Source: an uncultured delta proteobacterium (GTDB taxonomy: Bacteria; Myxococcota; Myxococcia; Myxococcales; Myxococcaceae). From it: a stretch of 64,000 nucleotides of DNA. How positions within the stretch are numbered: the stretch's first letter is position 1; the number at the start of each line of letters is the position of its first letter. The position numbers were made by a program, and so were the translations under genes. This document shows positions 1 through 3,068 of this stretch, piece after piece. The notes under the pieces were generated by a model that made no database searches, had not been told where the DNA came from, and saw only the letters and a program-made list of their open reading frames with translations. The stretch covers positions 1 through 64,000 of the forward strand of contig CAWCKH010000005.1 in NCBI GenBank assembly GCA_963796055.1, given 5' to 3'.

Positions 1-1
1 T

Positions 2-12
2 ATGGAGCGACC
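2..12 (+). repeat. Left sub-terminal inverted repeat of the IS
   Basis: ATGGAGCGACC is the exact reverse complement of 1483-1493. Confidence 0.9.
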
Positions 13-82
13 GGCTCGCTCGTTCAGCGCGGATTAGCCTCGGCAACGCCGCGGCCAGAGCCGCAAACGAGGAGCCGGTCGA

Positions 83-1178
83 GTGAAAACTACAACGCTG
101 ACCGTCGGAATGGACGTGCATAAGGAGTCGATTTCCTTCTCGGTGCTGGCCGGTGACCGGGGAGGCGCTCGGCCCACGGTGAAGATCCGGAACGATGCGC
201 TCGAGCTGAAGCGCTGCTTCGGCAGGCTCAAAAAGGAAGGGGCGGTCCGCGCCTGCTACGAGGCCGGGAGTTGCGGCTACGAGGTCTACCGGCAGCTCGC
301 AGCGATGAAGATCCCATGCGACGTGGTCGCGCCCTCGCTTATCCCGGTGCGCGCCGGCAATCGGGTCAAGACCGACCGGCGCGACGCCGAGAAGCTCGCT
401 CGCCTCTACCGCGCCGGCGAGCTCACTTCGATTCGTGTCCCCTCCGAGGCCGAGGAGGCGCTGCGGGATCTCGTTCGCTGCCGAGAGGATGCGCGCGAGG
501 ACGTCATCCGCGAGCGCGACCGACTCCTGAAGTTCCTCCTGCGCCACGGGCGCAGCTTTACCGAGGGCAAGAAGAACTGGTCGATGCCGCACTGGAAGTG
601 GCTTCGCAAACAGACGTTCGAGGCCCCCATCGCACAGACGGTCTTCACCGAGTACTTGGCCCGCCTCGAGGGAACGCTCGGACGTCTCAAGGCGCTCGAC
701 CAGGAACTCGCGACAGCCGCCGAGAAGGAGCCCTATAAAACTCCCGTTGCGAAGCTCCGCTGCCTGCGCGGCATCGACACGCTCTCGGCCGTCATCCTCA
801 TCGCCGAGATTCTGCGACTTCCAGCGGTTCGAGCACCCCGACCAGTTCATGGCTTTCGTCGGCCTCGTCCCGAGCGAGCGCTCGAGCGGAGCCAAGGAGC
901 GGCGGGGCAGCATCACCAAGACGGGCAACGGACACGCCCGGCGCGTACTGGTCGAGGCCGCCTGGCACTACCGGCGCCCGCCACGCCAGAGCGGCGTCAT
1001 CAAACAGCGCTGGGAGGGCCAGGATGCAAAGGTCGTAGCCCACGCATGGAAAGCCCAGGAGCGGCTGCACCGGCGCTTCCACCGCTTCGTCTCCCGCGGC
1101 AAACCTTCGCAGGTCGCGGCCGTCGCCGTGGCTCGCGAGCTCTGCGGCTTTGTCTGGGCCATCGCCCGCGCCGCTTGA
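83..1178 (+). pseudogene. IS110-family DEDD recombinase/transposase, frameshifted by one extra T at about 810-811 (true mutation or sequencing error)
   Basis: First frame gives GMDVH, YEAG, KTDRRDA (RuvC-like DEDD) up to LIAEI. A second frame continues CDFQRF...GLVPSERSSG...GSITKTGN..RRVLVEAAW...VAVAREL, stop 1176-1178. Deleting one T from GAGATTCTGC joins the two halves. Confidence 0.93.
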
Positions 1179-1200
1179 AAGGAGCAACGTACGTGCATCG

Positions 1201-1413
1201 CTTCGAAGCCGGCAGGCAGTGGATGAGCCAGGAACGTAGGAGGGACTCTCGACAGTTCTAAGTGGCGGCGGGCTCGACCCGCCGACCCACGCCGCTAGAG
1301 CGAGAAAGCCTCCCGACGAATCACGGTCATGCGGCGGCTCCGCCGACCCGCGAATCCTAGAGTGATCAACCGTCGCAGCTCCCTCGCTCGTCCCCTGCCT
1401 GAAGGCCTCGAAG
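1201..1413 (+). ncRNA. Putative bridge RNA / seekRNA of the IS
   Basis: Outer stem 1201-1228 / 1386-1413 encloses two stem-internal loop-hairpin modules (1239-1313 and 1314-1375). Loop 1253-1260 is the reverse complement of flank 1496-1503; loop 1354-1361 is identical to the right junction 1492-1499. Confidence 0.82.
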
Positions 1414-1476
1414 TACGAACCACGAGGAGCTGCGAAGCGAACAGACGCATCGCCACCAACGAACGAGAGAGCTGAC

Positions 1477-1482
1477 TTGACG
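1477..1482 (+). promoter_or_regulatory. Outward-facing -35 hexamer in the IS right end (circle-junction promoter half)
   Basis: TTGACG directly before the right IR, the usual arrangement in IS110/IS1111 elements. Confidence 0.6.
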
Positions 1483-1493
1483 GGTCGCTCCAT
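1483..1493 (-). repeat. Right sub-terminal inverted repeat of the IS
   Basis: GGTCGCTCCAT, reverse complement of 2-12. Confidence 0.9.
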
Positions 1494-1494
1494 C

Positions 1495-2916
1495 CTAGAA
1501 CTGCAGGCGGAGCATCAGCCGCCCGCCCAGGTAGCGGTCGGTCGCGCTCCCGGCCGCCTCCGGCTGGTTGTCGTCGAAGGTGAAGGAGGTCGACTGGTAG
1601 ATGCCGAAGATGCGCAGCGCGAGCGGCCCCACCAGCTGGACGTGGAAGCCGAGCTCGGCCTCGATCGCATGGGCGCTCCCGGTGAAGGCGATCGAGTTCA
1701 CCCCGCTCGCGTCCTGCACCGCGAGGCTCTTGGTGCTCCAGAGCACGTACTGGCCGCCGACGATGATCCAGAAGCCGCCCGACACCGGGATGTCGAGCCG
1801 CAGCCCGAAGCGGACCCCGGACAGGTCGAACTGCGGAAGGCCGTTGAAGCCGTTCCCGCTCGGGTCCCCGTCGGTCACGAACTTCTGCTTGCCGTAGGCG
1901 AAGATCGGGACGATGGCGAAGTCCGAGTCGCTCCAGAACCGCATCCGCCACTCCACCCCGGCCTGCCAGCGGTTGTAGGTGGTGCCCTTCTCGAAGGTGT
2001 TCGAGGCGTCCTGGAACTTGCTCTTCAGCCCCACCGACATCGCGTAGTCGCCGAAGAGCCCGATTCCGGCGAAGAAGCCGTCGGAGAAGAGGGCGATGGG
2101 GAAGAACTCCAGCCGGGCGTGCGGGGCGACGAAGAGGCTGACGCTGTACGGCCGGAGAATCGAGCCGGCACCCACGTTCCCGTAGGAGAGGTTGCGGTTG
2201 AGGAAGTCCGCACCGAGCTCGATCGCAAAGCGCCACTGGTGCCGCGGTGCTTCGTAGGCCTGGTTGGCGCCGGCGTCCACCGCCACCGGGGTGTCCGCGA
2301 GCGTCTTCTCCCCGGAAGCAGGAGGAGGAGGAACAGGGGTGATCGGGAGCGGCATCGGCTCGGCGCCGGTGACCGCGGCGCCGGCGGCGAGCGCTGCGCC
2401 GGCGCTCGGTCCGGTGGTGGGTGGAGTGGTGCTCAGGGTGTCCGGGCCGGCAGCAGCCGAGGTGCCCGCGGCCACCGCGCCCACCGCCCCGACCCCGGCG
2501 TTCCCCCCGCCGGAGGCGAGGTTGCCCACGTCCGCGCTCAGCGTCTGGAGGCTGGAGCTGGTGACCTTCCCCGCCTGGGTGAGCGGGAACGACCAGCTCT
2601 GCGCGGGCTTGCCCGGCTTGTCGAGCCAGGACAGCTGGACCTCCTTGCCCTTCCCGGACTTGGCCTTGGCCACGCCGCCCACCAGGAGACCCGACACCTG
2701 GGCGCTCTTCATCTTGTTCCAGTCCGGCTTCTTCTTGGTGAAGACGCGGCTCGACGGGACGCAGGTGTACGTGCGGCAGAGCGCGGCGGAGATCTGGCTC
2801 TGCACCTGCGACCGCTTGTCGCCGGTGATGGGAGCGATGGTGATCTTCGGGGCCGCTTCGGCCGTGAGCGCACAGACCAGGAGGCCCAGCGCGGCGAGTC
2901 TTCCGTGAAATGACAT
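1495..2916 (-). CDS. Secreted protein with low-complexity linker and probable C-terminal outer-membrane beta-barrel
   Basis: ATG 2916 with GGAGG RBS; signal peptide (LAALGLLVCALTAEA); Ala/Pro/Gly linker; alternating aromatic strands; ends LMLRLQF (beta-signal Phe). Confidence 0.7.
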   Translation of the reverse strand: MSFHGRLAALGLLVCALTAEAAPKITIAPITGDKRSQVQSQISAALCRTYTCVPSSRVFTKKKPDWNKMKSAQVSGLLVGGVAKAKSGKGKEVQLSWLDKPGKPAQSWSFPLTQAGKVTSSSLQTLSADVGNLASGGGNAGVGAVGAVAAGTSAAAGPDTLSTTPPTTGPSAGAALAAGAAVTGAEPMPLPITPVPPPPASGEKTLADTPVAVDAGANQAYEAPRHQWRFAIELGADFLNRNLSYGNVGAGSILRPYSVSLFVAPHARLEFFPIALFSDGFFAGIGLFGDYAMSVGLKSKFQDASNTFEKGTTYNRWQAGVEWRMRFWSDSDFAIVPIFAYGKQKFVTDGDPSGNGFNGLPQFDLSGVRFGLRLDIPVSGGFWIIVGGQYVLWSTKSLAVQDASGVNSIAFTGSAHAIEAELGFHVQLVGPLALRIFGIYQSTSFTFDDNQPEAAGSATDRYLGGRLMLRLQF

Positions 2917-3068
2917 CCCTTGTCCTCCGGGGGCGCGGGCGAGAGGACGGCGCAGGCGCGCCGCCCATGGGCCCAGCAGAGCGATGCTCCCCTCTCCGTC
3001 GCCACGCAGCAAGGTTTCGTCGCTGTGGACCGAAGGGCGCCGGTGTACCAGGATGTGGTCACCGTGAC

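What the first reader, a model, noticed from the sequence alone, without database searches (positions are those of the whole stretch)
1201..1503. Readable bridge RNA: two guide loops match the insertion flank and the element's own end
Seen: the 3' non-coding end folds into an outer stem (CTTCGA 1201/TCGAAG 1408; CAGGCAG 1213/CTGCCTG 1395; GGATGAGC 1221/GCTCGTCC 1386) around two similar modules. Module 1 has stems GGAGG/CCTCC and TCTCG/CGAGA, internal loop ACAGTTCTAA (1252-1261) opposite GCCGCTAGAG (1291-1300), and an apical hairpin. Module 2 has stems CGACG/CGTCG and ATCAC/GTGAT, internal loop GGTCAT (1325-1330) opposite GAATCCTAGA (1352-1361), and an apical hairpin with the same AC bulge. CAGTTCTA (1253-1260) is the exact reverse complement of the flank TAGAACTG (1496-1503). 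ATCCTAGA (1354-1361) equals the junction 1492-1499. Established: IS110/IS1111 recombinases use an element-encoded RNA with target- and donor-binding loops. Inference: module 1 binds target, module 2 binds donor, the core is CT, and this is a programmable RNA-guided recombinase from a myxobacterium.
Basis: partly seen in the sequence, partly recalled or inferred. Interest (0 to 1): 0.9.

Follow-up and report, generated by a model that had tools for sequence, protein, structure and literature searches.

The report
IS1111-type insertion sequence bridge RNA
The stretch is the guide ("bridge" or "seek") RNA gene at the tail of a mobile element of the known IS110/IS1111 family, and its loops can be read against the element's own end and its insertion sites, so it is a genuine but ordinary new member of a known kind.

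Summary
Window 1201-1413 is the 3' non-coding RNA of an IS1111-group IS110-family insertion sequence (window 1-1498, cut by the contig start).

- **Copies:** the genome holds five, each with an identical RNA region.
- **Fold:** it is conserved in 97 of 100 sources searched with a covariance model. 41 of 48 pairs show compensatory changes.
- **Guides (66 relatives with both junctions):**
  - Module 1 reads the target. 1253-1257 complements right-flank bases 1-5; 1294-1296 equals left-flank bases -3 to -1.
  - Module 2 reads the donor. 1354-1358 equals the last 5 bases of the right end in 66/66, across 9 variants.
  - Module 2's 5' side offers only about 3 pairs (1326-1328).
- **Core:** it is AG at 1497-1498, which is CT on the complementary strand. 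It is not the CT at 1495-1496.
- **Geometry:** read on the flipped strand, the layout matches IS621, including a handshake-like base (1299 = first donor base, 65/66).
- **Target:** GCT-AG-AAC. All five copies sit on the Phe-TAG stop of a convergent reading frame.
- **Frameshift:** the extra base at 810 is absent from contigs of four sequencing runs and from the copy on contig C3. No repair is needed.
- **Untested:** RNA expression and recombination.

Verdict: new member of a known kind, modest interest.

The parts
1..1498 (+). One copy of the insertion sequence. The contig begins 4 bases inside its left end, so the left core, the first 4 element bases (ACAG) and the left flank are missing here.
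   Evidence: Four further copies with both flanks in the same genome. Ends defined by comparing their flanks and by family geometry.
2..12 (+). Left subterminal inverted repeat, ATGGAGCGACC.
   Evidence: Perfect 11-base reverse complement of 1483-1493.
83..1178 (+). IS110-family DEDD/Ser recombinase gene. In this copy it is split by one extra base at 810 (frames 83-~811 and ~812-1178).
   Evidence: PF01548 (2.9e-17) plus PF02371 (6e-16). NF033542, 'IS110 family RNA-guided transposase', on both halves, profile 1-240 and 242-339. Intact 364-aa ORF in the C3 copy. Base 810 is left out in the contigs of 4 runs. D11, E60, D98, D101 and S267/S268-G269 are invariant in the family alignment. The N-terminal four align with matching acidic residues of a solved relative.
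1201..1413 (+). Bridge/seek RNA: an outer helix enclosing two internal-loop modules.
   Evidence: Fold. RNAalifold: 48 pairs, 32 compensatory. Covariance model hit 1202-1413 at 156 bits, the only hit in the window. 93.8% of cells paired and 41/48 pairs compensatory in 92 distinct rows.
1201..1228 (+). 5' strand of the long outer helix. It pairs with 1386-1413.
   Evidence: 22 of 23 pairs have changes on both sides in 17 sequences. All 23 do so in the 92 distinct rows.
1386..1413 (+). 3' strand of the outer helix.
   Evidence: As above.
1239..1313 (+). Module 1, the target-binding loop: stems GGAGG/CCTCC and TCTCG/CGAGA plus an apical hairpin.
   Evidence: Helices 3-6 are 90-97.5% paired with compensatory changes. 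The loop strands covary with the target.
1252..1260 (+). Target guide complementary to the top strand (right-target guide). 1253-1257 pair with right-flank bases 5 to 1, 1258-1259 (CT) pair with core AG, and 1260 pairs with the last left-flank base.
   Evidence: Highest mutual information in the data set. Complementarity is 94, 92, 86, 82 and 57% for right-flank bases 1-5. The 4-base guide is perfect in 48/66, against 0.1% for mismatched element pairs. Right-flank bases 1-3 match in 5/5 own copies.
1294..1299 (+). Target guide identical to the top strand (left-target guide). It comprises GCT 1294-1296, core AG 1297-1298, and A1299, which equals the first base of the element's left end (handshake-like).
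   Evidence: Identity to left-flank bases -1, -2 and -3 is 97, 89 and 63%. The 3-base guide is perfect in 39/66 against 2.3%. AG is present in 65/66. The next base equals the first left-end base in 65/66 (control 0.49). GCT precedes the element in 4/4 own copies with a left flank.
1314..1375 (+). Module 2, the donor-binding loop: stems CGACG/CGTCG and ATCAC/GTGAT plus an apical hairpin.
   Evidence: Helices 7-9. The ATCAC/GTGAT helix is weaker, at 74.7% paired.
1326..1328 (+). Short donor guide GTC. It is complementary to the core G plus the first two bases (AC) of the left end.
   Evidence: 28/28 elements whose left end starts AC have GTC here. 2/2 starting AT have ATC. 27/35 starting TC have GA(C/T), with a one-base register shift. 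The one element starting AA does not fit. This is the weakest of the four guides.
1354..1361 (+). [quoted passage not shown] It comprises ATCCT 1354-1358, core AG 1359-1360, and A1361, which equals the first right-flank base.
   Evidence: The 5-base guide equals the last 5 element bases in 66/66, across 9 different values. It matches in 0/1518 mismatched pairs. AG is present in 66/66. The next base equals the first right-flank base in 29/66 against 0.22.
1477..1482 (+). TTGACG, a -35-like hexamer. After circle formation it would lie 17 bases from CAGTAT in the left end (a putative junction promoter).
   Evidence: TTGAC lies 20-23 bases before the core in 60/66 relatives. This is inference. No promoter-like site was found in the linear sequence.
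1483..1493 (+). Right subterminal inverted repeat, GGTCGCTCCAT.
1494..1498 (+). Terminal three bases of the element (CCT) followed by the core dinucleotide AG (1497-1498).
   Evidence: Family geometry is CAT-N3-AG on the right and AG-N5-ATG on the left. In L009 only AGA is shared between the two junctions.
1499..1503 (+). Right half of the target (AACTG).
   Evidence: AAC is present in 5/5 copies; the next two bases vary.
1495..3012 (-). Convergent 505-codon flanking ORF. Its Phe-TAG stop overlaps the insertion point and is kept intact.
   Evidence: The same holds for all 5 copies. No Pfam or NCBIfam family matched.

Best explanation
Window 1201-1413 encodes the bridge RNA (seekRNA) of an IS1111-group member of the IS110 family. 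It is most likely co-transcribed with the recombinase gene (83-1178) and folds into a long closing helix around two internal-loop modules.

Each loop presents two short guides that pair with opposite DNA strands and overlap at the core dinucleotide AG, which is CT on the complementary strand.

- Module 1 reads the target GCT-AG-AAC(tg). 1253-1260 pairs with the top strand, and 1294-1298 pairs with the bottom strand.
- Module 2 reads the circularised element's junction ATCCT-AG-AC. [quoted passage not shown]

The RNA thereby brings target and donor together for the DEDD/Ser recombinase, which exchanges strands at the core.

What is shown: the fold, its conservation, and the covariation of three guides with target and donor.

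What is inferred from published family members: that the molecule acts as RNA, that it binds the recombinase, and that strand exchange occurs at AG.
For: The element:
- The recombinase carries PF01548, PF02371 and NF033542.
- It has 11-base subterminal inverted repeats, a short left and a long right non-coding end.
- The genome holds five copies, identical from 814 to the right end, and exactly five hits of the RNA model.

The fold:
- z is -3.77.
- 32/48 pairs are compensatory in 17 sequences.
- The model finds the RNA just 3' of the recombinase gene in 97 of 100 sources.
- 93.8% of cells are paired, against 71.0% in shuffles and 37-42% when partners are slid. 41/48 pairs are compensatory.
- Conserved U-G pairs (for example 84 of 92 rows at two positions) fit a folded + strand.

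Guides (66 relatives with both junctions):
- Right-target guide (4 bases): perfect in 48/66, against 0.1% in mismatched pairs.
- Left-target guide (3 bases): perfect in 39/66, against 2.3%.
- Right-end donor guide (5 bases): perfect in 66/66, against 0/1518.
- The top mutual-information pairs are exactly these positions.

Own copies: 4/4 left flanks end in GCT and 5/5 right flanks start with AAC.

Natural re-direction: L009 and L010 recombinases are 82.6% identical and share the same donor loop, but have different target loops and matching different targets.

Literature:
- IS1111 elements carry the RNA in the right end (PMC11208160, passages).
- In IS1111 seekRNAs the segment complementary to the top strand lies 5' of the one complementary to the bottom strand, and the two overlap on the target (PMC11187229, section 9). 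That is what is seen here.
Against: - There is no evidence here that the RNA is made, bound or active.
- The 5' donor guide is only about 3 pairs. It fails in 9 of 66 relatives and needs a one-base register shift in most of the TC group.
- The ATCAC/GTGAT helix is only 74.7% paired.
- The 66 elements were selected by a regular expression that presupposes the 3-base and 5-base spacers and a G at core position 2. 28 of the 94 with an inverted repeat were dropped.
- The relatives are related to one another, so the counts overstate independent events.
- Alignment A3 was fitted to the model's structure.
- For ISEc11, a short seekRNA of 82 nt was sufficient for movement (PMC11187229, section 10). 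A donor loop therefore need not be essential in this group.
- In the assembly, 4 of 5 copies carry a frameshift.
Confidence: 0.9

Rival explanations
1. Only module 1 is a guide (a target-seeking RNA). Module 2 is a structural, processing or protein-binding part. Its likeness to the right end reflects a repeated recombinase-binding site, not RNA-DNA pairing.
For: For ISEc11, an 82-nt seekRNA carrying the two target matches sufficed. The authors say the role of the long RNA 'remains to be established' (PMC11187229, sections 10 and 14). The 5' strand of module 2 offers only about 3 pairs.
Against: The 5 bases 1354-1358 track the last 5 bases of the element in 66/66, through 9 different values. 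They sit in the position equivalent to the left-target guide of module 1, followed by the same AG. Module 2 copies the stem-loop-stem plan of module 1. A binding-site repeat does not explain why the match stops at the core.
Confidence: 0.08
2. The matches act at the DNA level. Folded single-stranded DNA of the element's end would pair with the target, as in IS200/IS605 elements, with no RNA involved.
For: Sequence analysis alone cannot tell folded RNA from folded + strand DNA. No RNA data are available.
Against: The recombinase belongs to the family named and shown to be RNA-guided (NF033542; PMC11208160 and PMC11187229). The guides pair with both strands of a duplex target, as in the solved IS621 complexes (PMC11208158). 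The recombinase is a DEDD/Ser enzyme, not an HUH enzyme.
Confidence: 0.02
3. The element is a decayed relic in this genome, with broken recombinase genes, so the RNA is no longer in use.
For: In the assembly, 3 copies have an extra base at 810 and one has an extra base at 468. Only the C3 copy has the full 364-codon frame.
Against: The copies differ at only 9 alignment columns and are identical from 814 onward. That points to recent spread. The one contig covering 810 in each of four runs lacks the extra base. Two different insertions at one GATC-containing spot look more like consensus errors than mutations; this is inference. One intact copy could serve all five in trans.
Confidence: 0.07

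Closest known systems
IS1111-group elements with seekRNA / bridge RNA in the right end (ISEc11, ISPa11, ISKpn4, ISPst6 in PMC11187229; ISCARN28, ISAzs32, ISPa11 in PMC11208160)
   Same: DEDD/Ser recombinase with the GL-P----SG motif. Subterminal inverted repeats. The long non-coding region lies downstream of the gene. The segment complementary to the top strand lies 5' of the one complementary to the bottom strand, and the two overlap on the target. Close relatives are naturally re-directed.
   Different: The recombinase is 364 aa, against the 330-350 aa stated for the group. I could not compare sequences or RNA folds with those elements, because their sequences were not fetched and the figures are not held. 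In this clade both modules are enclosed by a closing helix of about 23 pairs.
IS621 bridge RNA (IS110 group; structures 8wt6 and others)
   Same: Two internal loops. Each has a longer 5' guide and a shorter 3' guide that pair with opposite strands and include the core. If the strands are flipped, the core is CT, the 5' target guide is 8-9 bases, the 3' guide is 5 bases, and it is followed by a base matching the donor, like a handshake guide.
   Different: The RNA lies in the right end, after the gene, not in the left end. The core reads AG on the strand of the gene. The inverted repeats are long. The 5' donor guide is about 3 pairs instead of 8-9. Protein similarity is remote (E 2.8e-8 over residues 195-293).
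ISEc45 (named IS110-family element on E. coli plasmids)
   Same: It is the closest named element found, at 44.4% identity over 98% of the recombinase. The same RNA model hits directly after its gene (45 bits, E 4.3e-9).
   Different: The sequence is much diverged and AT-richer. Its guides and targets were not analysed here. The 8 listed of 12 papers that mention it are resistance-genomics surveys by title (listing only).
IS200/IS605 DNA guide sequences
   Same: The element carries short sequences that pair with its target and its ends.
   Different: Those are DNA hairpins used by an HUH enzyme on single strands. Here the enzyme is DEDD/Ser and both strands of the target are read.

Membership tests
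IS110 family (DEDD/Ser RNA-guided recombinases) | N-terminal RuvC-like DEDD domain plus a C-terminal Tnp domain with a catalytic Ser | tested here: met
   PF01548 and PF02371. NF033542 matches both halves; each half scores near or below the whole-protein cut-off of 140 (152.1 and 89.7 bits). D11, E60, D98, D101, S267, S268 and G269 are invariant in 15 relatives. D11, E60, D98 and D101 align with matching acidic residues of ISCro4. IS621's catalytic residues are given as D11, E60, D102, D105 and S241 in PMC11208158.
IS1111 group | Subterminal inverted repeats of 7-17 bp | tested here: met
   11-bp perfect repeat at 2-12 / 1483-1493. It sits 5 bases from the core on the left and 3 bases on the right.
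IS1111 group | Longer non-coding region downstream of the recombinase gene | tested here: met
   About 86 bases lie upstream of the gene, against 318 bases downstream (1179-1496).
IS1111 group | GL-P----S(t)G motif in the C-terminal domain | tested here: met
   GLVPSERSSG is present in the intact copy. The motif is as stated in PMC11187229, section 6.
IS1111 group | Recombinase length of 330-350 aa | tested here: not met
   The protein is 364 aa, and relatives are 359-377 aa. This is a descriptive range in PMC11187229, not a strict criterion.
Bridge RNA / seekRNA | Conserved fold with internal loops, encoded in the element's non-coding end | tested here: met
Bridge RNA / seekRNA | Target loop with two guides that pair with opposite strands of the target, overlap at the core, and covary with the target | tested here: met
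Bridge RNA / seekRNA | Donor loop with two guides that match the element's two ends | tested here: inconclusive
   The right-end guide is met (66/66). The left-end guide is only about 3 pairs and is consistent in 57/66.
Bridge RNA / seekRNA | The RNA is made and binds the recombinase | not testable with these tools
   No run on record as RNA holds the stretch.
Bridge RNA / seekRNA | Changing the guides changes target or donor specificity | not testable with these tools
   Only natural re-direction among relatives was seen.
Rfam families | Match to a curated RNA family | tested here: not met
   No hit in 1-3000 at E up to 1, apart from a chance IRES_Bip match elsewhere.

The most novel reading that the evidence does not exclude
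The 'reversed' guide order of IS1111-type RNAs may be nothing more than a strand flip of the IS621 plan. Read on the strand opposite to the gene, this clade would have:
- a CT core;
- a long 5' and a short 3' target guide;
- a conserved handshake base (1299 equals the first donor base in 65/66).

On this reading, the strand cleaved first would be the one antisense to the recombinase gene.

The clade would then differ from IS621 in one real respect. Its donor loop reads essentially one arm (7 bases of the right end), while the left end is held by about 3 pairs plus the long inverted repeats.

The clade has about 600 relatives in the species set, spread over many phyla, and it has no Rfam family.
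Probability: 0.4. Interest if true: 0.45.

Novelty: new member of a known kind. Interest (0 to 1): 0.3.

Why it matters
It adds a fully readable natural example to the RNA-guided recombinases. Its ends, core, three well-supported guides and five insertion sites are now mapped.

It also supplies a covariance model and a 66-element junction table for a widespread clade. That clade reaches from soil bacteria to ISEc45 on E. coli plasmids.

For people who engineer bridge recombinases, the map says which bases to change. It also points to a possible difference in donor recognition.

It does not open a new kind of system. Both 2024 papers already describe RNAs of this type in IS1111 elements.

Tried and rejected
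- **Rfam 15:** no family matches the stretch.
- **Promoter and terminator scan of 1-1700:** 0 promoter-like sites, and 2 terminator-like sites, no more than in shuffles.
- **RNA evidence:** no RNA holder is listed among the 19 runs, so expression stays unchecked.
- **Circle junction:** no joint was seen in the contigs of 4 runs. Contigs cannot show rare forms.
- **Taxon:**
  - A search of the own genome for TIGR02268 found nothing, and nothing in the 14 control genomes either, so it says nothing. I chose that accession from memory as a family specific to myxobacteria.
  - 'Myxobacterium' stays unverified.
- **Earlier findings of this scan:** nothing to show.
rejected, because relatives have TC or other bases there while AG is constant.
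- **GGTCAT pairing with the inverted repeat or with the right end:** considered, but no consistent register was found across relatives.
- **Targets at stop codons across the whole clade:** only 14 of 48 relatives with a top-strand TAG have a long open frame ending there, so this is not a clade property.
- **Mutual information of about 0.4-0.7 between the first left-end base and many RNA columns:** treated as shared ancestry, not pairing.
- **Script and call errors:** searches failed (a too-strict pattern and a crash) and were replaced. One search exceeded the 100-source limit and was re-sent without L015.
Full report
**What is there.** The window starts at base 1 of contig C5 of a 5.53-Mb, 70.7% G+C genome in 7 contigs.

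Bases 83-1178 encode an IS110-family recombinase. The first frame carries PF01548 (DEDD_Tnp_IS110) and the second carries PF02371 (Transposase_20). NCBIfam NF033542, 'IS110 family RNA-guided transposase', covers profile positions 1-240 on one half and 242-339 on the other. The gene is therefore split by a single-base shift near 810 with no loss of sequence.

The gene is followed by 318 non-coding bases. An 11-base inverted repeat (2-12 and 1483-1493) lies just inside the two ends.

**Copies and ends.** The genome holds five copies. Four have both flanks. Every left flank ends in G-CTAG and then runs into ACAGTATGG. Every right end reads CCATCCTAG followed by AAC and then unrelated sequence.

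The copies differ at 9 alignment columns, and none lies after 813. The copy on contig C3 has an uninterrupted 364-codon frame. Two copies (this one and one on C4) have an extra T at 810. One has a different extra base at the same spot. The C2 copy has an extra T at 468.

Contigs of four public soil-metagenome runs of one study cover the element. In each run, the single contig across 810 lacks the extra base (word depths 9.1, 7.1, 6.4 and 4.0). These runs may be the samples the genome came from. They are an independent assembly, not an independent organism, and contigs drop rare variants. I read the frameshifts as probable consensus errors at a GATC-containing site, but copy-specific mutations are not excluded. 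Either way, an intact gene exists in the genome.

**The observation.** The minimum-free-energy fold of 1179-1500 contains the outer helix and both modules (z -3.77). The ATCCTAGA match alone is not beyond chance: 7 of 100 shuffles give two matches. The case therefore rests on comparison with relatives.

**Relatives and the fold.**
- The N-terminal half of the protein finds relatives in 26 of 301 genomes of the same order (G000 included), at 39-53% identity.
- An alignment of 15 recombinases finds 594 confirmed relatives in the species-representative collection, of which the best 80 were kept. By record title they come from Rokubacteria/NC10, Acidobacteriota, Solirubrobacterales, Elusimicrobia, Paenibacillus, Alicyclobacillus, Polaromonas and others.
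- A MAFFT alignment of the RNA region from 17 elements gives a consensus of 48 pairs, 32 of them with compensatory changes.
- A covariance model built from it hits 97 of 100 sources, always just after the recombinase gene. Two of the three misses have too little downstream sequence. There was one weak opposite-strand hit.
- On the resulting alignment (92 distinct rows), 93.8% of cells are standard pairs. Shuffles give 71.0% (0 of 500 reach the observed value), and sliding the partners by 1-3 columns gives 37-42%. 41 of 48 pairs show double changes. That alignment was fitted to the model.
- On the unfitted 17-sequence alignment the figures are 92.1% against 77.7%.
- In the own genome the model finds exactly the five copies and no solitary RNA genes.

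**Guides.** I located the inverted repeats in 94 of 97 elements. I then kept the 66 whose ends fit CA(T/C)-N3-NG on the right and NG-N5-(A/G)TG on the left with enough flank. This selection presupposes the spacing and the G. The first core base was left free, and it is A in 66/66 on the left and 64/66 on the right.

Mutual information between RNA columns and DNA positions (65 non-redundant rows) is highest for the following positions:

| RNA position | DNA partner | Relation | Share |
|---|---|---|---|
| 1257 | right-flank base 1 | complementary | 94% |
| 1256 | right-flank base 2 | complementary | 92% |
| 1255 | right-flank base 3 | complementary | 86% |
| 1254 | right-flank base 4 | complementary | 82% |
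| 1253 | right-flank base 5 | complementary | 57% |
| 1296 | left-flank base -1 | identical | 97% |
| 1295 | left-flank base -2 | identical | 89% |
| 1294 | left-flank base -3 | identical | 63% |
| 1356-1358 | last three element bases | identical | 100% |
| 1299 | first element base at the left end | identical | 100% |

Against a control that pairs each guide with the DNA of elements carrying a different guide:

| Guide | Perfect match, own element | Control |
|---|---|---|
| Right-target guide, 4 bases | 48/66 | 0.1% |
| Left-target guide, 3 bases | 39/66 | 2.3% |
| Right-end donor guide, 5 bases | 66/66 (9 values) | 0/1518 |

The guides carry CT (57/66), AG (65/66) and AG (66/66) opposite the core.

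The fourth guide is weak. The three bases before the end of module 2's 5' loop complement the core G plus the first two left-end bases. They read GTC in 28/28 elements starting AC, ATC in 2/2 starting AT, and GA(C/T) in 27/35 starting TC, the last mostly with a one-base shift. The single element starting AA does not fit. In this element that guide is 1326-1328.

**The core.** It aligns with TC in the 53 elements whose end is ATATC and covaries with the donor guide. In L009 the two junctions share only AGA. The constant dinucleotide is AG (1497-1498). The palindrome CTAG in this element hides the difference.

[quoted passage not shown] The 3' side pairs with the top strand over 4-7 bases. The core CT is included in all four pairings (PMC11208160, passages). 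Handshake bases next to the top-strand guides pair with the other DNA after strand exchange (PMC11208158, passages).

If the strand opposite to the gene is called 'top' here, the same description holds. The core becomes CT. The 5' target guide has 8-9 bases (1252-1260) and the 3' target guide has 5 (1294-1298). The next base (1299) matches the donor in 65/66, against 0.49 in the control. The equivalent base after the donor guide (1361) matches the target in 29/66, against 0.22.

This also accounts for the statement that the two target matches are in reverse order in IS1111-type seekRNAs (PMC11187229, abstract, section 9 and Discussion). Whether the papers' figures already show this I cannot tell, because figures are not held.

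**Target choice.** From the five copies, the specified target is GCT-AG-AAC. The fourth and fifth right-flank bases match the guide in 3/5 and 4/5 copies.

The genome has 17 empty GCTAGAAC sites, against about 80 expected from base composition, plus the five occupied ones. No empty site has the ideal next two bases, TG. By contrast, TAGAACTG occurs 37 times genome-wide. The three other matches in this window are not preceded by GC and are unoccupied. This fits a need for both guides.

All five occupied sites, and 10 of the 17 empty ones, lie on the TTC-TAG end of a frame of at least 100 codons on the opposite strand. Insertion keeps that stop codon. This looks like a by-product of where an A+T-rich CTAG word can occur in a 71% G+C genome. 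It is not general in the clade.

**Expression (inference).** No promoter-like site lies inside the element. TTGAC sits 20-23 bases before the core in 60/66 right ends. In this element, TTGACG (1477-1482) would lie 17 bases from CAGTAT once the ends are joined. That fits the published view that the recombinase mRNA and the long RNA are co-transcribed from the promoter formed at the circle junction (PMC11187229, Discussion). The title of Prosseda et al. 2006 on Pjunc of ISEc11 was seen only in a reference list.

**Comparison and novelty.** The element meets the tested criteria of the IS110 family and the IS1111 group, except a slightly longer protein. It also meets the sequence-level criteria of a bridge/seek RNA, except a full-length second donor guide.

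The nearest solved relatives are ISCro4 and IS621, and both are remote. The nearest named element is ISEc45, at 44.4% identity, and it carries the same RNA model hit. Durrant et al. report predicted bridge RNAs in 93.0% of IS1111 elements.

This is a new member of a known kind. Function is inferred from the family; nothing here was assayed.

Noticed in passing
L004 (G000:C2:48127-52629), element at locus 1501-2998: One copy sits between pheS (TIGR00468, 2.7e-98; its TAG stop is kept) and pheT (TIGR00472, 4.1e-156; its ATG lies 10 bases from the element's left end). pheT would have to be transcribed through 1.5 kb of element, antisense to the recombinase gene and the RNA, or from an outward promoter.
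   Followed up: partly
window 805-815 and the same place in L002, L005; L004 position 468 of the element: Near-identical copies carry different single-base insertions at one spot, inside GAGATCTGCG (which contains GATC/AGATCT). They are absent from short-read contigs of four runs. This looks like a systematic consensus error of the assembly rather than decay.
   Followed up: partly
window 1495-3012 (-): A 505-codon ORF with a signal-peptide-like start and a C-terminal Phe has no Pfam or NCBIfam match. It may be an outer-membrane barrel protein.
   Followed up: no
window 1: The contig begins 4 bases inside the element, so the assembly broke in this repeat. The left flank of this copy must lie at the end of another contig.
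   Followed up: no
L006 (G000:C3:697586-697611): A 26-base, 96% match to element positions 818-843 lies elsewhere in the genome. It may be a fragment of, or a second, IS110-family gene.
   Followed up: no
L008 (G094, same order as the window's genome) and L037 (record titled Candidatus Rokuibacteriota): The two carry elements with identical guide loops in different flanks. So the same element occurs in genomes filed under different labels. This points to horizontal spread or inconsistent naming.
   Followed up: no
relatives with ATATC right ends, e.g. L021, L034: Where the target contains CTAG, insertion turns a bottom-strand TAG stop at the right junction into TGA in the same frame. A convergent gene would therefore still terminate there. 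This was read off the sequences only.
   Followed up: no
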